Virus record (IMG/VR): IMGVR_UViG_2609459833_000001
DNA from: a virus
Taxonomy: Duplodnaviria > Heunggongvirae > Uroviricota > Caudoviricetes
Length of the DNA: 29,412 nucleotides
Direction: 5' to 3' (one strand)
The number at the start of each line of letters is the position of its first letter. The first letter of the stretch is position 1. Made by a program: the position numbers and the translations under genes. Below, piece after piece: positions 1,517-22,214 of this stretch. The notes beneath the pieces are model-generated. The model was given only the letters and a program-made list of their open reading frames with translations. It had not been told where the DNA came from and did not search any database.

Positions 1517-1810
1517 TTATTGTGAGCAATACACACGCGCTTCCAGCGGAGTATAAATGCCTAAAGTAATAAAACCGAGCAATCCATTTACGAATGTTTG
1601 CTGGGTTTCTGTTTTAACAACATTTTCTGCGCCGCCACAAATTTTGGCTGCATCAACAGTTTTCTCCTGTCCAATTCCCGAAACGAAGAAGTGATGGGTG
1701 ATGGTTTCCTTTGGTGTTACTGCTGTCGGTTTGTTTCCAACAGTAAACGTCTGTTGAGCACATCCTGTAATAAGCATTGCCAGAGCGGCAGAAAACAACA
1801 TTTTTTTCAT
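1517..1810 (-). CDS. bor: Bor lipoprotein (serum-resistance outer-membrane lipoprotein)
   Basis: 97-aa product MKKMLFSAALAMLITGCAQQTFTV...LEARVYCSQ with lipobox LITGC; close match to lambda Bor. Start chosen at MKKML (1808-1810 on minus) rather than the ORF-track start at 1858. Confidence 0.9.
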   Translation of the reverse strand: MKKMLFSAALAMLITGCAQQTFTVGNKPTAVTPKETITHHFFVSGIGQEKTVDAAKICGGAENVVKTETQQTFVNGLLGFITLGIYTPLEARVYCSQ

Positions 1811-2168
1811 CTTATTATCCTGCATTGTTAAAAACGGCAGAATCCTATGTGACAACAATTAAACGATAGTTAAATGGATTGATGAAAATTAAAACTATAT
1901 AGGTGGATGCTCAGCCTATTGGAGGAGGGGGCACTCAGAATCCTGTGGAATGAAATAAACCGCTCTTTCTGTCCATTACCCTTTTAGCTGCGCTGTATCG
2001 TCGCCGTATTCCCGCATTAACCATGACCGTAGCCCGACGGGGAATTCCTTCTGCGTGAGTGTGCGGGAATAATCAAAAACGATGCACACCGGGTTTTACT
2101 GTGCTGACAGACGCAGGGTTACCCTCATAGTCGCTTTTCCGGTGCGATGGTGGAAGAAACCGGGATGT

Positions 2169-2363
2169 TTATTCATCATCACTTTGGATTGATGTATATG
2201 CTCTCTTTTCTGACGTTAGTCTCCGACGGCAGGCTTCAATGACCCAGGCTGAGAAATTCCCAGACCCTTTTTGCTCAAGAGCGATGTTAATTTGTTCAAT
2301 CATTTGGTTAGGAAAGCGGATGTTGCGGGTTGTTGTTCTGCGGGTTCTGTTCTTCGTTGACAT
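2169..2363 (-). CDS. Small hypothetical protein, possible ribbon-helix-helix DNA-binding fold
   Basis: 64-aa ORF; a short basic strand (RNIRFP) followed by two predicted helices (NQMIEQINIALEQ / NFSAWVIEACRRRL) resembles Arc/CopG-type RHH proteins. Only a weak RBS; function inferred. Confidence 0.4.
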   Translation of the reverse strand: MSTKNRTRRTTTRNIRFPNQMIEQINIALEQKGSGNFSAWVIEACRRRLTSEKRAYTSIQSDDE

Positions 2364-2519
2364 GAGGTTGCCCCGTATTCAGTGTCGCTGATTTGTATTG
2401 TCTGAAGTTGTTTTTACGTTAAGTTGATGCAGATCAATTAATACGATACCTGCGTCATAATTGATTATTTGACGTGGTTTGATGGCGTAGATGCACGTTG
2501 TGATATGTAGATGATAATT

Positions 2520-2740
2520 ATTATCATTTTTCGGGTCCTTTCCGGCGATCCGACAGGTTACGGGGCGGCGACCTCGCGGGTTTTCGCTATTTATGAAAAT
2601 TTTCCGGTTTAAGGCATTTCCGTTCTTCTTCGTCGTAACTTAATGTTTTTATTTAAAATACCCCCTGAAAAGAAAGGAAACGACAGGTGCTGAAAACGAG
2701 CTTTTGGGCCTCTGTCGTTTCCTTTCTCTGTTTTTGGCCG
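2520..2740. other. cos: cos DNA-packaging site (cosQ-cosN-cosB); cosN 12-nt cohesive end GGGCGGCGACCT at 2563-2574
   Basis: Sequence GGGCGGCGACCTCGCGGGTTTTCGCTATTTATGAAAATTTTCCGG matches the lambda left end. Downstream inverted copies of GGAAACGACAG (2683-2696 and 2713-2725) match terminase-binding R elements of cosB, immediately upstream of Nu1. Confidence 0.85.
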
Positions 2741-2751
2741 TGGAATGAACA

Positions 2752-3271
2752 ATGGAAGTCAACAAAAAGCAGCTGGCTGACATTTTCGGTGCGAGTATCC
2801 GTACCATTCAGAACTGGCAGGAACAGGGAATGCCCGTTCTGCGAGGCGGTGGCAAGGGTAATGAGGTGCTTTATGACTCTGCCGCCGTTATAAGATGGTA
2901 TGCCGAAAGGGATGCTGAAATTGAGAACGAAAAGCTGCGCCGGGAAGTTGAAGAACTGCGGCAGGCCAGCGAGACAGATCTCCAGCCAGGGACTATTGAG
3001 TACGAACGCCATCGACTTACGCGTGCGCAGGCCGACGCACAGGAGCTGAAAAATGCCAGAGACTCCGCTGAAGTGGTGGAAACCGCATTCTGTACTTTCG
3101 TGCTGTCGCGGATCGCAGGTGAAATTGCCAGTATTCTCGACGGGATCCCCCTGTCGGTGCAGCGGCGTTTTCCGGAACTGGAAAACCGACATGTTGATTT
3201 CCTGAAACGGGATATCATCAAAGCCATGAACAAAGCAGCCGCGCTGGATGAACTGATACCGGGGTTGCTGA

Positions 3272-3297
<26 letters not shown>
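2752..3297 (+). CDS. Nu1: Terminase small subunit
   Basis: 181 aa, MEVNKKQLADIFGASIRTIQNWQEQGMPVL..., matches lambda Nu1; N-terminal winged-HTH; position directly after cosB. Confidence 0.95.
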
Positions 3298-6978
<3,681 letters not shown>

Positions 6979-10537: not shown

Positions 10538-11116
10538 ATGGCCATAAAAGGTCTTGAGCAGGCCGTTGAAAACCTCAGCCGTATCAGCAAAACGGCGGTG
10601 CCTGGTGCCGCCGCAATGGCCATTAACCGCGTTGCTTCATCCGCGATATCGCAGTCGGCGTCACAAGTTGCCCGTGAGACAAAGGTACGCCGGAAACTGG
10701 TAAAGGAAAGGGCCAGGCTGAAAAGGGCCACGGTCAAAAATCCGCAGGCCAGAATCAAAGTTAACCGGGGGGATTTGCCCGTAATCAAGCTGGGTAATGC
10801 GCGGGTTGTCCTTTCGCGCCGCAGGCGTCGTAAAAAGGGGCAGCGTTCATCCCTGAAAGGTGGCGGCAGCGTGCTTGTGGTGGGTAACCGTCGTATTCCC
10901 GGCGCGTTTATTCAGCAACTGAAAAATGGCCGGTGGCATGTCATGCAGCGTGTGGCCGGGAAAAACCGTTACCCCATTGATGTGGTGAAAATCCCGATGG
11001 CGGTGCCGCTGACCACGGCGTTTAAACAAAATATTGAGCGGATACGGCGTGAACGTCTTCCGAAAGAGCTGGGCTATGCGCTGCAGCATCAACTGAGGAT
11101 GGTAATAAAGCGATGA
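10538..11116 (+). CDS. Z: Tail completion protein Z
   Basis: 192 aa MAIKGLEQAVENLSRISKTAVPG..., matches lambda gpZ. Confidence 0.93.
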   Translation: MAIKGLEQAVENLSRISKTAVPGAAAMAINRVASSAISQSASQVARETKVRRKLVKERARLKRATVKNPQARIKVNRGDLPVIKLGNARVVLSRRRRRKKGQRSSLKGGGSVLVVGNRRIPGAFIQQLKNGRWHVMQRVAGKNRYPIDVVKIPMAVPLTTAFKQNIERIRRERLPKELGYALQHQLRMVIKR

Positions 11117-12694: not shown

Positions 12695-13110
12695 GTTTTG
12701 CCCTGAAACTGGCGCGCGAGATGGGGCGACCCGACTGGCGTGCCATGCTTGCCGGGATGTCATCCACGGAGTATGCCGACTGGCACCGCTTTTACAGTAC
12801 CCATTATTTTCATGATGTTCTGCTGGATATGCACTTTTCCGGGCTGACGTACACCGTGCTCAGCCTGTTTTTCAGCGATCCGGATATGCATCCGCTGGAT
12901 TTCAGTCTGCTGAACCGGCGCGAGGCTGACGAAGAGCCTGAAGATGATGTGCTGATGCAGAAAGCGGCAGGGCTTGCCGGAGGCGTTCGTTTTGGCCCGG
13001 ACGGGAATGAAGTTATCCCCGCTTCCCCGGATGTGGCGGACATGACGGAGGATGACGTAATGCTGATGACAGTATCAGAAGGGATCGCAGGAGGAGTCCG
13101 GTATGGCTGA
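12272..13110 (+). CDS. T: Tail assembly chaperone G-T fusion made by programmed -1 ribosomal frameshift (slippery heptamer G GGA AAG at 12670-12676)
   Basis: The T frame (12676..13110, MFDGELSFALKLAREMGRPDW...) has no RBS of its own and overlaps the G 3' end in the -1 frame; slippery site GGGAAAG sits in the G zero frame, as in lambda. Confidence 0.85.
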
Positions 13111-15664
13111 ACCGGTAGGCGATCTGGTCGTTGATTTAAGTCTGGATGCGGCCAGATTTGACGAGCAGATGGCCAGAGTCAGGCGTCATTTTTCCGGTAC
13201 GGAAACTGATGCGAAAAAAACAGCGGCAGTCGTTGAACAGTCGCTGAGCCGACAGGCGCTGGCTGCACAGAAAGCGGGGATTTCCGTCGGGCAGTATAAA
13301 GCCGCCATGCGTATGCTGCCTGCACAGTTCACCGACGTGGCCACGCAGCTTGCAGGCGGGCAAAGTCCGTGGCTGATCCTGCTGCAACAGGGTGGTCAGG
13401 TTAAGGACTCCTTCGGCGGGATGATCCCCATGTTCAGGGGGCTTGCCGGTGCGATCACCCTGCCGATGGTGGGGGCCACCTCGCTGGCGGTGGCGACCGG
13501 TGCGCTGGCGTATGCCTGGTATCAGGGCAACTCAACCCTGTCCGATTTCAACAAAACGCTGGTCCTTTCCGGCAATCAGGCGGGACTGACGGCAGATCGT
13601 ATTCTGGCCCTGTCCAGAGCCGGGCAGGCGGCAGGGCTGACGTTTAACCAGACCAGCGAGTCACTCAGCGCACTGGTTAAGGCGGGGGTAAGCGGTGAGG
13701 CTCAGATTGCGTCCATCAGCCAGAGTGTGGCGCGTTTCTCCTCTGCATCCGGCGTGGAGGTGGACAAGGTCGCTGAAGCCTTCGGGAAGCTGACCACAGA
13801 CCCGACGTCGGGGCTGACGGCGATGGCACGCCAGTTCCATAACGTGACGGCGGAGCAGATTGCGTATGTTGCTCAGTTGCAGCGTTCCGGCGATGAAGCC
13901 GGGGCATTGCAGGCGGCGAACGAGGCCGCAACGAAAGGGTTTGATGACCAGACCCGCCGCCTGAAAGAGAACATGGGCACGCTGGAGACCTGGGCAGACA
14001 GGACAGCACGGGCATTCAAATCCATGTGGGATGCGGTGCTGGATATTGGTCGTCCTGATACCGCGCAGGAGATGCTGATTAAGGCAGAGGCTGCGTTTAA
14101 GAAAGCAGACGACATCTGGAATCTGCGCAAGGATGATTATTTTGTTAACGATGAAGCGCGGGCGCGTTACTGGGATGATCGTGAAAAGGCCCGTCTTGCG
14201 CTTGAAGCCGCCCGAAAGAAGGCTGAGCAGCAGACTCAACAGGACAAAAATGCGCAGCAGCAGAGCGATACCGAAGCGTCACGGCTGAAATATACCGAAG
14301 AGGCGCAGAAGGCTTACGAACGGCTGCAGACGCCGCTGGAGAAATATACCGCCCGTCAGGAAGAACTGAACAAGGCACTGAAAGACGGGAAAATCCTGCA
14401 GGCGGATTACAACACGCTGATGGCGGCGGCGAAAAAGGATTATGAAGCGACGCTGAAAAAGCCGAAACAGTCCGGCGTGAAGGTGTCTGCGGGCGATCGT
14501 CAGGAAGACAGTGCTCATGCTGCCCTGCTGACGCTTCAGGCAGAACTCCGGACGCTGGAGAAGCATGCCGGAGCAAATGAGAAAATCAGCCAGCAGCGCC
14601 GGGATTTGTGGAAGGCGGAGAGTCAGTTCGCGGTACTGGAGGAGGCGGCGCAACGTCGCCAGCTGTCTGCACAGGAGAAATCCCTGCTGGCGCATAAAGA
14701 TGAGACGCTGGAGTACAAACGCCAGCTGGCTGCACTTGGCGACAAGGTTACGTATCAGGAGCGCCTGAACGCGCTGGCGCAGCAGGCGGATAAATTCGCA
14801 CAGCAGCAACGGGCAAAACGGGCCGCCATTGATGCGAAAAGCCGGGGGCTGACTGACCGGCAGGCAGAACGGGAAGCCACGGAACAGCGCCTGAAGGAAC
14901 AGTATGGCGATAATCCGCTGGCGCTGAATAACGTCATGTCAGAGCAGAAAAAGACCTGGGCGGCTGAAGACCAGCTTCGCGGGAGCTGGATGGCAGGCCT
15001 CAGGTCAGGCTGGAGTGAGTGGGAAGAGAGCGCCACGGACAGTATGTCGCAGGTAAAAAGTGCAGCCACGCAGACCTTTGATGGTATTGCACAGAATATG
15101 GCGGCGATGCTGACCGGCAGTGAGCAGAACTGGCGCAGCTTCACCCGTTCCGTGCTGTCCATGATGACAGAAATTCTGCTTAAGCAGGCAATGGTGGGGA
15201 TTGTCGGGAGTATCGGCAGCGCCATTGGCGGGGCTGTTGGTGGCGGCGCATCCGCGTCAGGCGGTACAGCCATTCAGGCCGCTGCGGCGAAATTCCATTT
15301 TGCAACCGGAGGATTTACGGGAACCGGCGGCAAATATGAGCCAGCGGGGATTGTTCACCGTGGTGAGTTTGTCTTCACGAAGGAGGCAACCAGCCGGATT
15401 GGCGTGGGGAATCTTTACCGGCTGATGCGCGGCTATGCCACCGGCGGTTATGTCGGTACACCGGGCAGCATGGCAGACAGCCGGTCGCAGGCGTCCGGGA
15501 CGTTTGAGCAGAATAACCATGTGGTGATTAACAACGACGGCACGAACGGGCAGATAGGTCCGGCTGCTCTGAAGGCGGTGTATGACATGGCCCGCAAGGG
15601 TGCCCGTGATGAAATTCAGACACAGATGCGTGATGGTGGCCTGTTCTCCGGAGGTGGACGATGA
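13103..15664 (+). CDS. H: Tail tape-measure protein H
   Basis: 853 aa, long coiled-coil central region, matches lambda gpH. Confidence 0.95.
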   Translation: MAEPVGDLVVDLSLDAARFDEQMARVRRHFSGTETDAKKTAAVVEQSLSRQALAAQKAGISVGQYKAAMRMLPAQFTDVATQLAGGQSPWLILLQQGGQVKDSFGGMIPMFRGLAGAITLPMVGATSLAVATGALAYAWYQGNSTLSDFNKTLVLSGNQAGLTADRILALSRAGQAAGLTFNQTSESLSALVKAGVSGEAQIASISQSVARFSSASGVEVDKVAEAFGKLTTDPTSGLTAMARQFHNVTAEQIAYVAQLQRSGDEAGALQAANEAATKGFDDQTRRLKENMGTLETWADRTARAFKSMWDAVLDIGRPDTAQEMLIKAEAAFKKADDIWNLRKDDYFVNDEARARYWDDREKARLALEAARKKAEQQTQQDKNAQQQSDTEASRLKYTEEAQKAYERLQTPLEKYTARQEELNKALKDGKILQADYNTLMAAAKKDYEATLKKPKQSGVKVSAGDRQEDSAHAALLTLQAELRTLEKHAGANEKISQQRRDLWKAESQFAVLEEAAQRRQLSAQEKSLLAHKDETLEYKRQLAALGDKVTYQERLNALAQQADKFAQQQRAKRAAIDAKSRGLTDRQAEREATEQRLKEQYGDNPLALNNVMSEQKKTWAAEDQLRGSWMAGLRSGWSEWEESATDSMSQVKSAATQTFDGIAQNMAAMLTGSEQNWRSFTRSVLSMMTEILLKQAMVGIVGSIGSAIGGAVGGGASASGGTAIQAAAAKFHFATGGFTGTGGKYEPAGIVHRGEFVFTKEATSRIGVGNLYRLMRGYATGGYVGTPGSMADSRSQASGTFEQNNHVVINNDGTNGQIGPAALKAVYDMARKGARDEIQTQMRDGGLFSGGGR

Positions 15665-15990
15665 AGACCTTCCGCTGGAAAGTGAAACCCGGTATGGATG
15701 TGGCTTCGGCCCCTTCTGTAAGAAAGGTGCGCTTTGGTGATGGCTATTCTCAGCGAGCGCCTGCCGGGCTGAATGCCAACCTGAAAACGTACAGCGTGAC
15801 GCTTTCTGTCCCCCGTGAGGAGGCCACGGTACTGGAGTCGTTTCTGGAAGAGCACGGGGGCTGGAAAGCCTTTCTGTGGACGCCGCCTTATGAGTGGCGG
15901 CAGATAAAGGTGACCTGCGCAAAATGGTCGTCGCGGGTCAGTATGCTGCGTGTTGAGTTCAGCGCAGAGTTTGAACAGGTGGTGAACTGA
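15661..15990 (+). CDS. M: Tail tip assembly protein M
   Basis: 109 aa MKTFRWKVKPGMDVASAPSVRKV..., matches lambda gpM. Confidence 0.93.
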   Translation: MKTFRWKVKPGMDVASAPSVRKVRFGDGYSQRAPAGLNANLKTYSVTLSVPREEATVLESFLEEHGGWKAFLWTPPYEWRQIKVTCAKWSSRVSMLRVEFSAEFEQVVN

Positions 15991-16688
15991 TGCAGGATAT
16001 CCGGCAGGAAACACTGAATGAATGCACCCGTGCGGAGCAGTCGGCCAGCGTGGTGCTCTGGGAAATCGACCTGACAGAGGTCGGTGGAGAACGTTATTTT
16101 TTCTGTAATGAGCAGAACGAAAAAGGTGAGCCGGTCACCTGGCAGGGGCGACAGTATCAGCCGTATCCCATTCAGGGGAGTGGTTTTGAACTGAATGGCA
16201 AAGGCACCAGTACGCGCCCCACACTGACGGTTTCTAACCTGTACGGTATGGTCATCGGGATGGCGGAAGATCTGCAGAGTCTGGTCGGTGGAACGGTGGT
16301 CCGGCGTAAGGTTTACGCCCGTTTTCTGGATGCGGTGAACTTCGTCAACGGAAACAGTGGCGCCGATCCGGAGCAGGAGGTGATCAGCCGCTGGCGCATT
16401 GAGCAGTGCAGCGAACTGAGCGCGGTGAGTGCCTCTTTTGTACTGTCCACGCCGACGGAAACGGACGGTGCTGTTTTTCCGGGACGTATCATGCTGGCCA
16501 ACACCTGCACCTGGACCTATCGCGGTGATGAGTGCGGTTATCACGGTCCGGCAGTCGCGGATGAATATGACCAGCCAACGTCCGATATCACGAAGGATAA
16601 ATGCAGCAAATGCCTGAGCGGTTGTAAGTTCCGCAATAACGTCGGCAACTTTGGCGGCTTCCTTTCCATTAACAAACTTTCGCAGTAA
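15990..16688 (+). CDS. L: Tail tip protein L
   Basis: 232 aa MQDIRQETLNECTRAEQSASVVLWEIDL..., matches lambda gpL; C-terminal Cys cluster present. Confidence 0.93.
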   Translation: MQDIRQETLNECTRAEQSASVVLWEIDLTEVGGERYFFCNEQNEKGEPVTWQGRQYQPYPIQGSGFELNGKGTSTRPTLTVSNLYGMVIGMAEDLQSLVGGTVVRRKVYARFLDAVNFVNGNSGADPEQEVISRWRIEQCSELSAVSASFVLSTPTETDGAVFPGRIMLANTCTWTYRGDECGYHGPAVADEYDQPTSDITKDKCSKCLSGCKFRNNVGNFGGFLSINKLSQ

Positions 16689-16693
16689 ATCCC

Positions 16694-17437
16694 ATGACAC
16701 AGACAGAATCAGCGATTCTGGCGCACGCCCGGCGATGTGCGCCAGCGGAGTCGTGCGGCTTCGTGGTAAGCACGCCGGAGGGGGAAAGATATTTTCCCGG
16801 CGTGAATATTTCCGGTGAGCCGGAGGATTATTTCCGGATGGCTCCGGAGGACTGGCTGCAGGCAGAAATGCAGGGTGAGATTGTGGCGCTGGTCCACAGC
16901 CACCCCGGTGGTCTGCCCTGGCTGAGTGAGGCTGACCGGCGGCTGCAGGTGCAGAGTGATTTGCCGTGGTGGCTGGTCTGCCGGGGGGCGATTCATAAGT
17001 TCCGCTGTGTGCCGCATCTCACCGGGCGGCGCTTTGAGCACGGGGTGACGGACTGTTACACGCTGTTCCGGGATGCTTATCATCTGGCGGGGATTGAGAT
17101 GCCGGATTTTCATCGCGGGGATGACTGGTGGCGTCACGGTCAGAATCTCTATCTGGATAATCTGGAGGCCACAGGGCTGTATCAGGTGCCGTTGTCAGCG
17201 GCGCAGCCGGGCGATGTGCTGCTGTGCTGTTTTGGTTCATCGGTGCCGAATCATGCCGCCATTTACTGTGGTGACGGTGAGCTGCTGCACCATATTCCTG
17301 AACAACTGAGCAAACGAGAGAGGTACACCGACAAATGGCAGCGACGCACACACTCCCTCTGGCGTCACCGGGCATGGCGCGCATCTGCCTTTACGGGGAT
17401 TTACAACGATTTGGTCGCCGCATCGACCTTCGTGTGA
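16694..17437 (+). CDS. K: Tail tip assembly protein K (MPN/JAMM-like motif HSHPGG...SEAD plus NlpC/P60-like C-terminal region)
   Basis: 247-aa continuous ORF starting 6 nt after the L stop. The part from MAPEDWLQAEMQGEIVALVHSHPGG onward matches lambda gpK; the N-terminal 48 aa are an in-frame extension relative to the 199-aa K I remember for lambda. Confidence 0.85.
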   Translation: MTQTESAILAHARRCAPAESCGFVVSTPEGERYFPGVNISGEPEDYFRMAPEDWLQAEMQGEIVALVHSHPGGLPWLSEADRRLQVQSDLPWWLVCRGAIHKFRCVPHLTGRRFEHGVTDCYTLFRDAYHLAGIEMPDFHRGDDWWRHGQNLYLDNLEATGLYQVPLSAAQPGDVLLCCFGSSVPNHAAIYCGDGELLHHIPEQLSKRERYTDKWQRRTHSLWRHRAWRASAFTGIYNDLVAASTFV

Positions 17438-18006
17438 AAACGGGGGCTGAAGCCATCCGGGCACTGGCCACACAGCTCCCGGCGTTTCGTCAGAAACTGA
17501 GCGACGGCTGGTATCAGGTACGGATTGCCGGGCGGGACGTCAGCACGTCCGGGTTAACGGCGCAGTTACATGAGACTCTGCCTGATGGCGCTGTGATTCA
17601 TATTGTTCCCAGAGTCGCCGGGGCCAAGTCAGGTGGCGTATTCCAGATTGTCCTGGGGGCTGCCGCCATTGCCGGATCATTCTTTACCGCCGGAGCCACC
17701 CTTGCAGCATGGGGGGCAGCCATTGGGGCCGGTGGTATGACCGGCATCCTGTTTTCTCTCGGTGCCAGTATGGTGCTCGGTGGTGTGGCGCAGATGCTGG
17801 CACCGAAAGCCAGAACTCCCCGTACACAGACAACGGATAACGGTAAGCAGAACACCTATTTCTCCTCACTGGATAACATGGTTGCCCAGGGCAATGTTCT
17901 GCCTGTTCTGTACGGGGAAATGCGCGTGGGGTCACGCGTGGTTTCTCAGGAGATCAGCACGGCAGACGAAGGGGACGGTGGTCAGGTTGTGGTGATTGGT
18001 CGCTGA
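17335..18006 (+). CDS. I: Tail tip assembly protein I
   Basis: 223 aa MAATHTLPLASPGMARICLYGDLQRF..., matches lambda gpI; overlaps the K 3' end. Confidence 0.93.
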   Translation: MAATHTLPLASPGMARICLYGDLQRFGRRIDLRVKTGAEAIRALATQLPAFRQKLSDGWYQVRIAGRDVSTSGLTAQLHETLPDGAVIHIVPRVAGAKSGGVFQIVLGAAAIAGSFFTAGATLAAWGAAIGAGGMTGILFSLGASMVLGGVAQMLAPKARTPRTQTTDNGKQNTYFSSLDNMVAQGNVLPVLYGEMRVGSRVVSQEISTADEGDGGQVVVIGR

Positions 18007-18066: not shown

Positions 18067-21000
18067 ATGAGTAAAGGAAGCAGTAAGGGGCATACCCCGC
18101 GCGAAGCGAAGGACAACCTGAAGTCCACGCAGCTGCTGAGTGTGATCGATGCCATCAGCGAAGGGCCGGTTGAAGGTCCGGTGGATGGATTAAAAAGCGT
18201 GCTGCTGAACAGTACGCCGGTGCTGGACACTGAGGGGAATACCAACATCTCCGGTGTCACGGTGGTGTTCCGTGCCGGTGAGCAGGAGCAGACACCGCCG
18301 GAGGGGTTTGAATCCTCCGGCTCCGAGACGGTGTTGGGTACGGAAGTGAAATACGACACGCCGATCACCCGCGCCATCACGTCGGCAAACATCGACCGAC
18401 TGCGCTTTACCTTCGGTGTGCAGGCACTGGTGGAAACCACCTCAAAGGGGGACCGGAATCCGTCGGAAGTTCGCCTGCTGGTTCAGATACAGCGTAATGG
18501 TGGCTGGGTGACGGAAAAAGATATCACCATTAAGGGCAAAACCACCTCGCAGTATCTGGCCTCGGTGGTGGTGGATAACCTGCCGCCGCGCCCGTTTAAT
18601 ATCCGGATGCGCAGAATGACGCCGGACAGCACCACAGACCAGCTGCAGAACAAAACGCTCTGGTCGTCATACACCGAAATCATCGATGTGAAACAGTGCT
18701 ACCCGAACACGGCACTGGTCGGCGTGCAGGTGGATTCGGAGCAGTTCGGCAGCCAGCAGGTGAGCCGTAATTATCATCTTCGCGGGCGCATTCTGCAGGT
18801 GCCGTCGAATTATAACCCGCAGACGCGGCAATACAGCGGTATCTGGGACGGAACGTTAAAACCGGCATACAGCAACAACATGGCCTGGTGTCTGTGGGAT
18901 ATGCTGACCCACCCGCGCTACGGCATGGGGAAACGTCTTGGTGCGGCAGATGTGGATAAATGGGCGCTGTATGTCATCGGCCAGAATTGCGACCAGTCGG
19001 TGCCGGACGGCTTTGGCGGTACGGAGCCGCGCATCACCTGTAACGCTTACCTGACCACACAACGTAAGGCGTGGGATGTGCTCAGTGATTTCTGCTCGGC
19101 GATGCGCTGTATGCCGGTATGGAACGGGCAGACGCTGACGTTCGTGCAGGACCGACCGTCGGATAAGGTGTGGACCTATAACCGCAGTAATGTGGTGATG
19201 CCGGATGATGGCGCGCCGTTCCGCTACAGCTTCAGCGCCCTGAAAGACCGCCATAATGCCGTTGAGGTGAACTGGATTGACCCGGATAACGGCTGGGAGA
19301 CGGCAACAGAGCTTGTGGAGGACTCGCAGGCCATTGCCCGTTACGGTCGTAACGTCACGAAGATGGATGCCTTTGGCTGTACCAGCCGGGGGCAGGCACA
19401 CCGCGCCGGGCTGTGGCTGATTAAAACGGAGCTGCTGGAAACGCAGACGGTGGACTTCAGCGTGGGTGCCGAAGGGCTTCGCCATGTGCCGGGCGATGTC
19501 ATTGAAATCTGTGATGATGACTATGCCGGTATCAGCACCGGCGGGCGCGTGCTGGCGGTAAACAGTCAGACCCGGACGCTGACGCTCGACCGTGAAATCA
19601 CGCTGCCATCCTCCGGTACCACGCTGATAAGCCTGGTTGACGGAAGTGGCAATCCGGTCAGCGTGGAGGTTCAGTCCGTCACCGACGGCGTGAAGGTGAA
19701 AGTGAGCCGGGTTCCTGACGGCGTTGCTGAATACAGCGTGTGGGGGCTGAAGCTGCCGACGCTGCGCCAGCGCCTGTTCCGCTGCGTGAGTATCCGTGAG
19801 AACGACGACGGCACGTATGCCATCACCGCCGTGCAGCATGTACCGGAAAAAGAAGCCATCGTGGATAACGGGGCGCACTTTGACGGCGACCAGAGCGGCA
19901 CGGTGAATGGTGTCACGCCGCCAGCGGTGCAGCACCTGACTGCCGAAGTCACCGCAGACAGTGGGGAATACCAGGTGCTGGCCCGCTGGGACACGCCGAA
20001 GGTGGTGAAGGGCGTGAGTTTCATGCTTCGCCTGACCGTGGCAGCGGATGACGGCAGTGAGCGGCTGGTCAGCACGGCCCGGACGGCGGAAACCACATAC
20101 CGCTTCACGCAACTGGCGCCAGGGAACTACAGGCTGACAGTCCGGGCGGTAAATGCGTGGGGGCAGCAGGGCGATCCGGCGTCGGTATCGTTCCGGATTG
20201 CCGCATCGGCAGCACCGTCGAGGATTGAGCTGACGCCGGGCTATTTTCAGATAACCGCCACGCCGCATCTTGCCGTTTATGACCCGACGGTACAGTTTGA
20301 GTTCTGGTTCTCGGAAAAGCGGATTACCGATATCAGGCAGGTTGAAACCACAGCCCGCTATCTTGGTACGGCGCTGTACTGGATAGCCGCCAGTATCAAT
20401 ATCAAACCGGGCCATGATTATTACTTTTATATCCGCAGTGTGAACACCGTTGGCAAATCGGCATTCGTGGAGGCCGTCGGTCGGGCGAGCGATGATGCGG
20501 AAGGTTACCTGGATTTTTTCAAAGGCAAGATAACCGAATCCCATCTCGGTAAAGAGCTGCTGGAAAAAGTTGATCTGACGGAGGATAACGCCAGCAGACT
20601 GGATGAGTTTTCGAAAGAGTGGAAGGACGCTAACGATAAATGGAATGCCATGTGGGGCGTCAAAATTGAGCAGACCAAAGACGGCAAACATTATGTCGCG
20701 GGTATTGGCCTCAGCATGGAGGACACGGAGGAAGGCAAGCTGAGCCAGTTTCTGGTTGCCGCTAACCGTATCGCGTTTATTGACCCGGCAAACGGGAATG
20801 AAACGCCGATGTTTGTGGCGCAGGGCAACCAGATATTCATGAACGACGTGTTCCTGAAGCGCCTGACAGCCCCCACCATTACCAGCGGTGGCAGTCCTCC
20901 GGTATTTTCCCTGACATCAGACGGAAAGCTGACCGCTAAAAATGCGGATATCAGTGGTAGTGTGAATGCGAACTCAGGAACGCTCAACAATGTCACGATT

Positions 21001-21480
21001 AACCAGAACTGTACGATTAAGGGCATGCTGGAGGCGACTCAGGTCAGAGGTGACTTCGTTAAAGCTGTATCCAAATCATTTCCGAAACAGGCTGGTACGT
21101 GGGGTAACACGGAAACACCAAACGGGACGGTTACAGTCACCATCAGCGATGATCATAACTTTGACCGTCAAATCATTATTCCGCCCATTATCTTTAACGG
21201 AATAGCGTATAGCGATCCGGGAAGTGGTAATAACCCGGGAGGTACAAGATACACGGGTTATGGTTTTGAAGTTCGCAAAAACGGTGTATTAATCGCATCC
21301 AGAGAAACTAAAGGGGCCATTCCCGGTAGCTACAGTGCGGTTATTGATATGCCGAGTGGCAGGGGAAGCGTCACTCTGGAGTTTAAGGTTTTCCATAAAG
21401 GCAATCAGCGGGCAGGTAATATCACCGACTGTACGGTGATTGTGACCAAAAAAGCGGCTTCAGGCATCAGTATTCGTTGA
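18067..21480 (+). CDS. J: Central tail fibre / host-specificity protein J, with divergent C-terminal receptor-binding module
   Basis: 1137 aa; N-terminal ~980 aa match lambda gpJ ([31 protein letters not shown]...); the last ~150 aa differ from lambda J as I recall it and the DNA is visibly AT-richer from about 21000. Confidence 0.9.
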
Positions 21481-21502
21481 AATATTTATAACCCCAATAA
21501 AT

Positions 21503-21526
21503 GGCGTCAGGAATGACGCCTTTTTT
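21503..21526 (+). terminator. Rho-independent terminator downstream of J
   Basis: GGCGTCA-GGAA-TGACGCC hairpin followed by TTTTTT. Confidence 0.7.
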
Positions 21527-21550
21527 ATTGCAGAAAAGCGAGAGGTAATT

Positions 21551-22150
21551 ATGCGTAAAGTTTGTGCAGCCATTTTGTCCGCAGCCATTTGTCTGGCCGT
21601 ATCCGGTGCGCCTGCATGGGCGTCTGAACATCAGTCCACGCTGAGCGCGGGGTATCTTCATGCCCGGACCAACGTTCCCGGCAGTGATGATCTGAACGGG
21701 ATTAACGTGAAATACCGTTATGAGTTTACGGATACGCTGGGGCTGGTGACGTCATTCAGCTATGCAGGAGACAAGAATCGCCAGCTGACCCATTACAGCG
21801 ATACCCGCTGGCATGAAGATTCCGTTCGTAACCGCTGGTTCAGCGTAATGGCGGGGCCGTCTGTGCGCGTGAATGAATGGTTCAGCGCGTATGCGATGGC
21901 GGGTGTGGCTTACAGCCGTGTGTCGACTTTCTCCGGGGATTATCTCCGCGTAACTGACAACAAGGGGAAAACGCACGACGTGCTGACCGGAAGTGATGAC
22001 GGTCGCCACAGCAACACGTCTCTGGCGTGGGGAGCTGGCGTGCAGTTTAACCCGACCGAATCCGTGGCCATTGATATTGCTTATGAAGGCTCCGGCAGCG
22101 GTGACTGGCGTACCAACAGTTTCATCGTGGGTGTCGGTTATAAATTCTGA
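21551..22150 (+). CDS. lom: Lom-family outer-membrane beta-barrel protein (Ail/PagC/OmpX family)
   Basis: 199 aa with signal peptide MRKVCAAILSAAICLAVSGAPAWA; C-terminal half (...SVMAGP...AYAMAGVA...DIAYEGSGSGDWRTNSFIVGVGYKF) matches lambda Lom, N-terminal half is divergent. Confidence 0.88.
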   Translation: MRKVCAAILSAAICLAVSGAPAWASEHQSTLSAGYLHARTNVPGSDDLNGINVKYRYEFTDTLGLVTSFSYAGDKNRQLTHYSDTRWHEDSVRNRWFSVMAGPSVRVNEWFSAYAMAGVAYSRVSTFSGDYLRVTDNKGKTHDVLTGSDDGRHSNTSLAWGAGVQFNPTESVAIDIAYEGSGSGDWRTNSFIVGVGYKF

Positions 22151-22203: not shown

Positions 22204-22214
22204 GTGGGGTGAAT

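What the first reader, a model, noticed from the sequence alone, without database searches (positions are those of the whole stretch)
16689..16840. K reads as a 247-aa ORF starting right after L, longer than the 199-aa lambda K I recall
From Nu1 through L, every gene start and stop sits at a constant offset (2561) from the lambda coordinates I remember. K, I and J need an offset one larger, implying one extra nucleotide here between the L stop and the reference K start. With it, the K frame is open from ATG 16694 and adds 48 N-terminal residues upstream of MAPEDW..., just ahead of the HSHPGG...SEAD MPN/JAMM-like motif. Either this prophage carries a fuller K than the reference annotation, or the reference start is an artefact of a frame difference.
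Basis: partly seen in the sequence, partly recalled or inferred. Interest (0 to 1): 0.35.

Follow-up and report, generated by a model that had tools for sequence, protein, structure and literature searches.

The report
Full-length lambda K; reference lacks one base
The 247-residue K gene in this prophage is the normal, complete form of the lambda tail-assembly protein K; the famous 1982 lambda reference sequence lacks one G here, so its 199-residue K is cut short and loses half of a protease domain.

Summary
Nu1 to L sit 2561 bases from their NC_001416 coordinates; K stop, I and J sit 2562. The extra base aligns to a gap after reference position 14266 (GGAGGC^TATTTCC). The window is not the odd one out. 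Every independently sequenced lambda I checked has a G there, and with it the same 247-codon ORF starting 5 nt after the L stop. These include lambda imm434, which keeps the PaPa stf frameshift, stf-intact Lambda_AGU, K-12 NBRC 3301 and BL21(DE3). In NBRC 3301 this G is the only difference from the reference in 2.3 kb.

The 48 added residues form the first half of a JAB/MPN+ metalloprotease domain and include the invariant catalytic Glu19. Prok-JAB scores 50.1 bits with them and 22.9 bits, below threshold, without. They are conserved down to 32% identity and show third-codon-position variation. The reference's start Met49 is Ile or Val in most homologues.

So K is a 28 kDa JAB + NlpC/P60 protein. 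The 199-residue annotation is most likely a gel-compression sequencing error. RefSeq prophage annotation and a 2025 lambda record already residues, and the architecture was published in 2006. This is a curation matter, not a discovery, although truncated K is still used experimentally.

The parts
15990..16688 (+). Gene L (232 aa), tail tip protein. Its TAA stop (16686-16688) lies 5 nt before the K start.
   Evidence: Same length and offset (2561) as NC_001416 L 13429..14127.
16694..17437 (+). Full-length gene K: 247 aa, about 28.2 kDa, JAB/MPN+ domain followed by an NlpC/P60 domain.
   Evidence: ORF list. Pfam PF14464 residues 3-98 (50.1 bits) and PF00877 residues 111-224 (47.7 bits). RefSeq annotates the same 744-nt CDS in E. 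coli W and in lambda lysogen NBRC 3301.
16694..16837 (+). The 48 N-terminal codons missing from the reference annotation. They form helix 3-14 and strands 21-27 and 30-36 of the JAB fold.
   Evidence: AF2 pLDDT 88-94 over residues 1-50. Invariant I8, L9, P17, E19, S20, C21, G22, Y33, N38, S40, F47 in 30 homologues. Codon-position bias 6/1/15. PDB JAB protein 2kks_A aligns from residue 7.
16748..16750 (+). Codon 19, GAG: the JAMM catalytic glutamate (APAESCG).
   Evidence: Invariant in homologues down to 32% identity. Role assigned from the EXnHS/THX7SXXD motif in PMC300881 (abstract).
16809..16826 (+). Short G+C hairpin (CCGG-TGAG-CCGG core; 6 bp CTCCGG/CCGGAG in lambda) ending immediately 5' of the base missing from the reference.
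   Evidence: lambda version -6.7 kcal/mol as ssDNA, z = -3.2. Its link to a gel-compression error is inference.
16827..16828 (+). Site of the one-base difference. Window 'AT' aligns with resequenced lambda 'CG' and with reference 'C-' (G missing after NC_001416 14266).
16838..16840 (+). Codon 49, ATG: the start used by the reference annotation. GGAGG (16822-16826) lies 11 nt upstream.
   Evidence: The Met is replaced by Ile or Val in most homologues.
16895..16936 (+). JAMM zinc-site motif H68-S-H70-x7-S78-x-x-D81 (HSHPGGLPWLSEAD).
   Evidence: translation. H68, S69, H70 and D81 invariant, S78 nearly invariant.
17024..17365 (+). NlpC/P60 (C40) papain-like peptidase domain, with Cys121 (17054-17056), His187 and His199.
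   Evidence: Pfam. Invariant D120, C121, H187, H199, H200. Foldseek hits to MepS, LytE and CwlO.
17335..18006 (+). Gene I (223 aa as in the reference), overlapping the K 3' end in another frame. It has a ubiquitin-like N-terminal domain and is the predicted K substrate.
   Evidence: Prediction from PMC1779556.

Best explanation
The ORF 16694-17437 is the genuine, complete K gene of a lambda-type tail cluster.

Translation most likely starts at ATG 16694. It sits 5 nt after the L stop codon and has no Shine-Dalgarno sequence of its own, so initiation probably depends on coupling to L termination (inferred).

The product is a 247-residue, roughly 28 kDa protein that is not found in virions. It has two peptidase domains:
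- An N-terminal JAB/MPN+ zinc metalloprotease with a complete JAMM site (Glu19, His68, His70, Ser78, Asp81).
- A C-terminal NlpC/P60 cysteine peptidase (Cys121, His187, His199).

Phage lambda itself encodes the same 247-residue protein. The 199-residue K of J02459/NC_001416 arises because the 1982 sequence lacks one G after position 14266. That shifts the first 48 codons out of frame and made the annotators choose the next in-frame ATG, which has a GGAGG upstream. The missing base is most probably a gel-compression reading error just 3' of a G+C hairpin (inferred).

Functionally, K most likely acts as a protease during tail-tip assembly. The published prediction is that its JAB domain removes the ubiquitin-like N-terminal domain of gpI. 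This step is inferred, not shown.
For: One-base gap in the reference only. The sole difference between NC_001416 13300-15600 and the K-12 NBRC 3301 lambda prophage is +G after 14266.

All top 40 lambda lysogen chromosomes span 2302 nt for the 2301-nt reference query, with identical scores.

Lambda imm434, which retains the PaPa stf frameshift, and stf-intact Lambda_AGU both carry the G. Only 4 of 122 phage records lack it, all of them copies of the 1982 sequence or records that share its coordinates here.

With the G, lambda has the same 247-aa ORF.

Prok-JAB scores 50.1 bits (cut-off 25) over profile positions 3-103 for the 247-aa form, and 22.9 bits over positions 63-103 for the 199-aa form.

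Homologues at 68-98% identity are 242-249 aa with both domains. Distant homologues (32-58% identity) start at the equivalent position and keep E19, C21 and G22 invariant. Met49 is not conserved.

Third-position variation in the first 144 nt is 6/1/15, P = 9e-4.

The AF2 model has pLDDT 88-94 for residues 1-50 as part of the first domain. Foldseek matches JAMM1 and Rpn11, and NlpC/P60 enzymes. PDB JAB protein 2kks_A aligns from residue 7.

RefSeq and the 2025 record PV340536 already annotate 744-nt K genes.

The hairpin lies immediately before the missing base.

gpK is absent from virions by mass spectrometry (PMC10721106). Only gpI residues 134-222 are seen in virions. The TAPK-processes-TAPI prediction is in PMC1779556.
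Against: There is no direct protein-level evidence here for the N-terminus or size of gpK.

ATG 16694 has no recognisable Shine-Dalgarno sequence. The internal ATG has GGAGG 11 nt upstream, so some internal initiation cannot be excluded.

I could not examine raw reads of the exact strain Sanger sequenced (cI857 S7), so a private mutation in that stock is not formally excluded.

No held paper states the K correction explicitly. Feiss et al. 2022 mention only '9 differences' without listing them, and they kept the 199-aa annotation for lambda hybrids.

Protease activity and substrates are untested.
Confidence: 0.93

Rival explanations
1. The base missing from the reference is real: the lambda cI857 S7 stock sequenced in 1982 carried a private one-base deletion, and that phage made a truncated K from the internal ATG. 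The JAB domain would then be dispensable in the laboratory.
For: The internal ATG has a GGAGG upstream, so a 199-aa product is conceivable. I could not inspect reads from that exact strain. Iyer et al. note some prophage K versions with only the NlpC/P60 domain.
Against: Every other lambda lineage examined carries the G: PaPa-type imm434, imm21, DE3, stf-intact Lambda_AGU and the K-12 lysogens. The N-terminal half is under purifying selection and universally conserved. K is an essential tail gene (PMC10695390). The site directly follows a G+C hairpin, a classic compression context. The same 1982 sequence has another single-base discrepancy at 139.
Confidence: 0.04
2. Both starts are used. The gene yields a 247-aa JAB + NlpC/P60 protein and, by internal initiation at codon 49, a 199-aa protein that is effectively NlpC/P60 only.
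For: GGAGG at 16822-16826, 11 nt before ATG 16838. All 69 close relatives keep ATG at codon 49. Gene callers often pick this start: 199-aa clusters with thousands of members (P0054, P0059, P0061, P0062).
Against: The GGAGG is fixed by the conserved coding sequence (G)EPE (E42 and P43 nearly invariant). An 11-nt spacing is long for a Shine-Dalgarno sequence. Codon 49 is Ile or Val in most homologues at or below 85% identity, so no conserved internal start exists. The 199-aa product would carry an unfoldable half JAB domain.
Confidence: 0.1
3. The window's prophage gained a base, so its long K is a derived fusion of a small upstream ORF with the true K.
For: Only the raw comparison with NC_001416.
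Against: The long frame is the family norm from E. coli to Edwardsiella and in distant representatives. The upstream part is the first half of one protein domain. Lambda itself has the base.
Confidence: 0.01

Closest known systems
Phage lambda tail tip assembly protein K (gpK; NP_040598.1 in NC_001416), as re-read from resequenced lambda (RefSeq WP_000194780.1; XSB40720.1 in PV340536)
   Same: Same gene order L-K-I-J. 241 of 247 residues are identical to corrected lambda K; the differences are G36C, D45A, A50S, A99T, G142E and H148N. Same start 5 nt after L and same overlap with I.
   Different: It differs only from the 1982 annotation, which is 199 aa because of the missing G. The six substitutions include none of the catalytic residues.
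[quoted passage not shown]
   Same: Two-peptidase architecture, placed next to the ubiquitin-like TAPI and to TAPJ.
   Different: None found. This is a typical member.
JAMM/MPN+ isopeptidases (AfJAMM, Pyrococcus JAMM1 / desampylase, Rpn11, Csn5)
   Same: Complete E...HxH-x7-S-x-x-D motif and MPN fold. Weak NCBIfam desampylase match over residues 3-114.
   Different: Fused to a papain-like NlpC/P60 domain. Substrate unknown. Sequence similarity is low (about 20% identity; NCBIfam score 28 against a cut-off of 130).
NlpC/P60 (C40) D,L-endopeptidases such as MepS/Spr, LytE and CwlO
   Same: Fold and Cys-His-His catalytic residues.
   Different: gpK is cytoplasmic during assembly and absent from virions, so a peptidoglycan substrate is doubtful. 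The phage_NlpC_fam model TIGR02219 scores far below its cut-off.

Membership tests
JAB/MPN+ (JAMM) metalloprotease, Pfam PF14464 Prok-JAB | Profile match above the curated gathering score | tested here: met
   50.1 bits against a cut-off of 25, residues 3-98, for the 247-aa protein. The 199-aa form scores 22.9 bits, below the cut-off.
JAB/MPN+ (JAMM) metalloprotease, Pfam PF14464 Prok-JAB | Catalytic motif E-x(n)-H-S/T-H-x7-S-x-x-D | tested here: met
   E19, H68-S69-H70, then seven residues, then S78-E-A-D81. E19, H68, S69, H70 and D81 are invariant, and S78 is present in at least 90% of 18 homologues at 32-58% identity. Motif definition from PMC300881 (abstract).
JAB/MPN+ (JAMM) metalloprotease, Pfam PF14464 Prok-JAB | MPN fold | tested here: met
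   AF2 model pLDDT 78 overall and 88-94 for residues 1-50. Foldseek hits to P. furiosus JAMM1 5lda/5ld9 (E 1.4e-3 to 6e-3) and Rpn11 4ocm_E. phmmer hit to JAB protein 2kks_A.
JAB/MPN+ (JAMM) metalloprotease, Pfam PF14464 Prok-JAB | Zinc-dependent (iso)peptidase activity | not testable with these tools
   Needs biochemistry.
NlpC/P60 (MEROPS C40), Pfam PF00877 | Profile match above the gathering score, and the papain-like Cys/His/polar triad | tested here: met
   47.7 bits against a cut-off of 23, residues 111-224 covering profile 1-105/105. C121, H187 and H199 invariant. Foldseek top hits are MepS, LytE and Acd33800.
Lambda-type tail assembly protein K (TAPK) | Position between L and I/J in a lambda-like tail cluster | tested here: met
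   M 15661, L 15990, K 16694, I 17335, J 18067. Lambda_tail_I Pfam match on the downstream ORF.
Lambda-type tail assembly protein K (TAPK) | Family-typical length and N-terminus (about 240-250 aa, both domains) | tested here: met
   Homologues of 242-249 aa. Distant representatives align from their own residues 1-15.
Lambda-type tail assembly protein K (TAPK) | Required for tail-tip assembly and absent from mature virions | not tested
   Known for lambda from the literature. Not testable for this prophage.

The most novel reading that the evidence does not exclude
With its JAMM site restored, gpK becomes a credible candidate for the unidentified protease(s) of lambda tail maturation. It could remove the ubiquitin-like N-terminal domain of gpI, of which only residues 134-222 are seen in virions. 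It could also cleave the tape measure gpH to gpH*, whose catalyst is stated to be unknown. Experiments that used the 199-residue reference ORF, such as ORFeome and trigger-library clones, would have tested a protein lacking the catalytic glutamate and could not have seen this activity.
Probability: 0.3. Interest if true: 0.55.

Novelty: already known. Interest (0 to 1): 0.2.

Why it matters
For the window itself nothing is unusual: K is a standard family member.

The practical point concerns the lambda reference. NC_001416/J02459 and NP_040598.1 are still the default source for primers, clone libraries and read mapping.
- The lambda two-hybrid ORFeome was designed from NC_001416 (PMC3224144).
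- A 2025 phage-trigger library lists gpK as NP_040598.1 (PMC12236752).
- A CRISPRi study and a mutation-rate study also used NC_001416 as reference.

A 199-residue K lacks 48 residues, including the catalytic Glu and three secondary-structure elements of its JAB domain. Negative results with such constructs are therefore uninformative.

gpK's role is still described as unknown in 2023-2026 structural papers. Using the correct 247-residue protein is a precondition for testing the predicted gpK-gpI protease-substrate relationship.

Tried and rejected
Literature. I looked for a paper that states the K correction explicitly (searches; readings).
- None of the held papers does.
- Searching '14266' returned only unrelated papers.
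- Casjens and Hendrix 2015 and the Liu et al. 2013 ribosome-profiling paper are not held.
- From memory only, not a tool result: the breseq lambda example lists '139 delta 1 bp' and '14,266 +G' as differences from NC_001416. This agrees.

Programmed frameshift. I considered one joining the 76-aa upstream ORF of the reference to K. I rejected it because all real lambda sequences have a single continuous frame.

Insertion in the window. Rejected.

Fold search. Foldseek against the PDB was dominated by NlpC/P60 hits. JAMM hits appear only from rank 27, so the fold evidence for the N-domain is supportive rather than strong on its own.

Other scans. NCBIfam gave only sub-threshold hits. The promoter and terminator scan found nothing relevant beyond the hairpin.

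Full report
**1. What is in the window.**
- Gene L occupies 15990-16688 (232 aa) and ends in TAA at 16686-16688.
- Five bases later, ATG 16694 opens a 247-codon frame that runs to TGA at 17437.
- Gene I (17335-18006) overlaps its 3' end in another frame, and J starts at 18067.
- No other start codon precedes ATG 16694 in that frame, because the ORF list begins each ORF at the first start after a stop.
- The 20 nt upstream of ATG 16694 (…AACTTTCGCAGTAAATCCC) contain no GGAG-like element.

**2. Check of the offset claim.** NC_001416 annotates nu1 at 191, A at 711, B at 2836, H at 10542, M at 13100, L at 13429..14127, K at 14276..14875, I at 14773 and J at 15505.
- The window has these ORFs at 2752, 3272, 5397, 13103, 15661 and 15990..16688. 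That is offset 2561.
- From there on it has ATG 16838 and stop 17437, then 17335 and 18067. That is offset 2562.
- Alignment shows a single gap in the reference, within GGAGGC-TATTTCC. The window reads GGAGGATTATTTCC.

**3. Which sequence is the odd one out.** I aligned the site from several independent lambda records: lambda imm21 (OM418625), lambda KT232076, DE3 (EU078592), and phage 21. All read GGAGGCGTATTTCC, so they have a G where the reference has nothing.

An 81-nt probe across the site found 122 phage records, and only four lack the base:
- J02459 and NC_001416, which are the same 1982 sequence.
- OR474059, an UNVERIFIED, unannotated engineered strain.
- OR974322, a chicken-swab 'isolate' whose L and K gene coordinates are identical to the reference and which is probably reference-guided.

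In complete E. coli genomes, the 40 best matches to reference 13300-15600 all cover 2302 bases for the 2301-base query, with one identical score. They include J53, NCM3722, NBRC 3301, AG100, BL21(DE3) and C41/C43(DE3).

For NBRC 3301 the comparison is exact. There are 967 identical bases, then one extra G after 14266, then 1334 identical bases.

Both lambda lineages carry the G:
- Lambda imm434 still has the PaPa stf frameshift (stf split at 19650..20855 and 21029..21973). In 24 kb it differs from the reference at only four sites: a G absent at 139, +G after 14266, and two substitutions.
- Lambda_AGU (48,503 bp), which also carries an extra C before reference position 20836, at the end of orf-401 (stf) where the reference frame breaks, has the same 139 and 14266 differences.

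So the G is present in both PaPa-type and stf-intact lambdas, and the 1982 record alone lacks it.

A 6-bp G+C hairpin (CTCCGG-TGAG-CCGGAG; -6.7 kcal/mol as single-stranded DNA, z = -3.2) ends two bases before the missing G. That is the classic setting for band compression on dideoxy gels. This cause is my inference. A private mutation in the sequenced stock cannot be formally excluded.

**4. Consequence for lambda.** With the G restored, lambda has the same ORF: 247 aa, 28.3 kDa instead of 23.0 kDa. It starts MTQTESAILAHARRCAPAESCGF… and differs from the window protein at six residues.

Annotation practice is inconsistent:
- RefSeq annotates this 744-nt CDS in lambda lysogens (WP_000194780.1) and in the near-identical prophage of E. 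coli W (WP_001349921.1; 99.8% nucleotide identity to the window).
- A 2025 lambda record does too (PV340536).
- Feiss et al. annotated phage 21 K at 744 nt, but kept 199 aa for the lambda hybrids although their sequences contain the G.

**5. Is the N-terminal extension really protein?**
- Domain completeness: the 247-aa protein matches Prok-JAB (PF14464) over profile positions 3-103 of 114 at 50.1 bits (cut-off 25). The 199-aa form matches only positions 63-103 at 22.9 bits, below the cut-off. The 48-aa piece alone matches positions 3-39.
- Solved structure: the JAB protein 2kks_A aligns from residue 7 (AILAHARRCAPAESCG against EMLAHARQALPNEACG).
- Close homologues: those at 68-98% identity from Escherichia, Shigella, Citrobacter, Salmonella and Edwardsiella are 242-249 aa with both Pfam domains. 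In 30 of them I8, L9, A12, P17, E19, S20, C21, G22, Y33, N38, S40 and F47 are invariant.
- Distant homologues: an exhaustive search found 2633 relatives. The full-length distant ones (32-58% identity, about 230-270 aa) align from their own first 1-15 residues. In 18 of them E19, C21, G22, N38, F47, H68, S69, H70, D81, D120, C121, H187, H199 and H200 are invariant.
- The reference start is not conserved: Met49 is Ile or Val in most of these sequences.
- Frame integrity: among 80 IMG/VR relatives no indel separates the two parts, and all 69 distinct full-length sequences keep 247 codons open.
- Selection: variable sites in the first 144 nt fall 6/1/15 on codon positions 1/2/3 (P = 9e-4), like the rest of the gene at 20/19/62.
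- Structure prediction: an AlphaFold2 model (pLDDT 78) places residues 1-50 at pLDDT 88-94 as helix 3-14 and strands 21-27 and 30-36 of the first domain.
- Fold search: Foldseek matches NlpC/P60 enzymes (MepS, LytE, CwlO) and, for the N-domain, P. furiosus JAMM1, Rpn11 and BRCC36-complex chains.

**6. What the extension adds.** The JAMM motif is E-x(n)-H-S/T-H-x7-S-x-x-D. The His and Asp residues bind zinc, and the Glu hydrogen-bonds the catalytic water (PMC300881).

K has H68-S-H70, then seven residues, then S78-E-A-D81. The only invariant upstream glutamate is E19, in APAESCG, inside the 48 residues absent from the reference protein. The reference K therefore lacks a catalytic residue and about half of the MPN fold.

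**7. Mechanism.**
- Shown: K is a JAB + NlpC/P60 two-peptidase protein encoded between L and I, with all catalytic residues conserved.
- From the literature: K is essential for tail formation (PMC10695390). It is not detected in virions by mass spectrometry (PMC10721106). Its location and function are described as unknown in 2025-2026.
- Published prediction: Iyer, Burroughs and Aravind (PMC1779556) described the TAPK architecture. They predicted that its JAB domain cleaves the ubiquitin-like domain from TAPI at a conserved C-terminal glycine.
- Consistent with that prediction: Lambda_tail_I matches residues 14-97 of gpI. Only gpI residues 134/135-222/223 are seen in virion structures, and one deposited chain is just those 90 residues.
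- Open question: the enzyme that cuts gpH to gpH* is stated to be unknown.
- Inferred: initiation at ATG 16694 by coupling to L termination, and K acting as the gpI (and possibly gpH) processing protease.

**8. The internal start.** GGAGG (16822-16826) lies 11 nt before ATG 16838 (10 nt in the erroneous reference), which explains the 1982-83 choice of start. The same bases encode the conserved E42-P43-E. The spacing is long, and the Met is not conserved beyond close relatives. Low-level internal initiation cannot be excluded, but there is no comparative support for a functional 199-aa isoform.

**9. Verdict.** The window's K is ordinary for its family. The anomaly lies in the lambda reference record.

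The corrected gene model already exists in RefSeq prophage annotation and in at least one lambda GenBank record, and the domain architecture was published in 2006. I therefore rate this as already known and of low interest as a discovery.

It has real practical value. NP_040598.1 is still used as 'gpK' in current work (PMC12236752; PMC3224144).

Noticed in passing
window 17335-18006 (gene I); alternative GTG start at 17434: The start of I is annotated inconsistently. The lambda reference and PDB entries use 223 aa (start 17335, inside K). RefSeq prophage annotation uses 190 aa from the GTG overlapping the K stop (GTGTGA). Pfam Lambda_tail_I covers residues 14-97 of the long form at profile positions 2-83. 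The short form keeps only profile positions 26-83. The RefSeq start therefore truncates the ubiquitin-like domain; Met1 or Met14 (MARICLYG) is more likely.
   Followed up: partly
gpI, residues 134-222 (window about 17734-18000): Virion cryo-EM structures resolve only the C-terminal roughly 90 residues of gpI (PDB 9e7m chains are 90 aa; 8iyk was deposited as 223 aa). The ubiquitin-like N-domain is unseen. This fits, but does not prove, proteolytic removal by K as predicted in 2006.
   Followed up: partly
NC_001416 position 139 (upstream of nu1; not in the finding's interval): The reference has a second single-base discrepancy. A G at 139 is absent from both lambda imm434 and Lambda_AGU, so the +1 and -1 cancel in total genome length for some strains.
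   Followed up: partly
window 16686-16696 and L011-L090: The L-K junction is polymorphic among close relatives. TAAATCCCATG (5-nt spacer) occurs in 41 distinct sequences and TAATCCCATG (4-nt spacer, as in phage 21) in 25. One has a TGA stop and two have a different L 3' end. All keep the tight stop-start arrangement expected for translational coupling.
   Followed up: partly
protein clusters P0054, P0059, P0061, P0062: Large 199-aa clusters (about 1,700-4,900 member sequences each, mostly from ENA and Logan assemblies) carry only the NlpC/P60 Pfam call. They probably reflect gene callers preferring the internal ATG with its GGAGG, or lambda control DNA annotated by transfer from the reference, rather than truly short genes.
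   Followed up: no
window 18067-21480 and 22209-25289: J is 1137 aa here against 1132 aa in lambda. A single 1026-aa ORF occupies the position where the lambda PaPa reference has the frameshift-split stf (orf-401 / orf-314), so this prophage probably has intact side tail fibres. Identity of the ORF was not checked.
   Followed up: no
Foldseek hit 8v3w_H: A diffocin baseplate 'triplex region' chain (581 aa) aligned over 246 columns with the K model (E 1.6e-4), but at rmsd 16 A. It may contain an NlpC/P60-like module; not examined.
   Followed up: no
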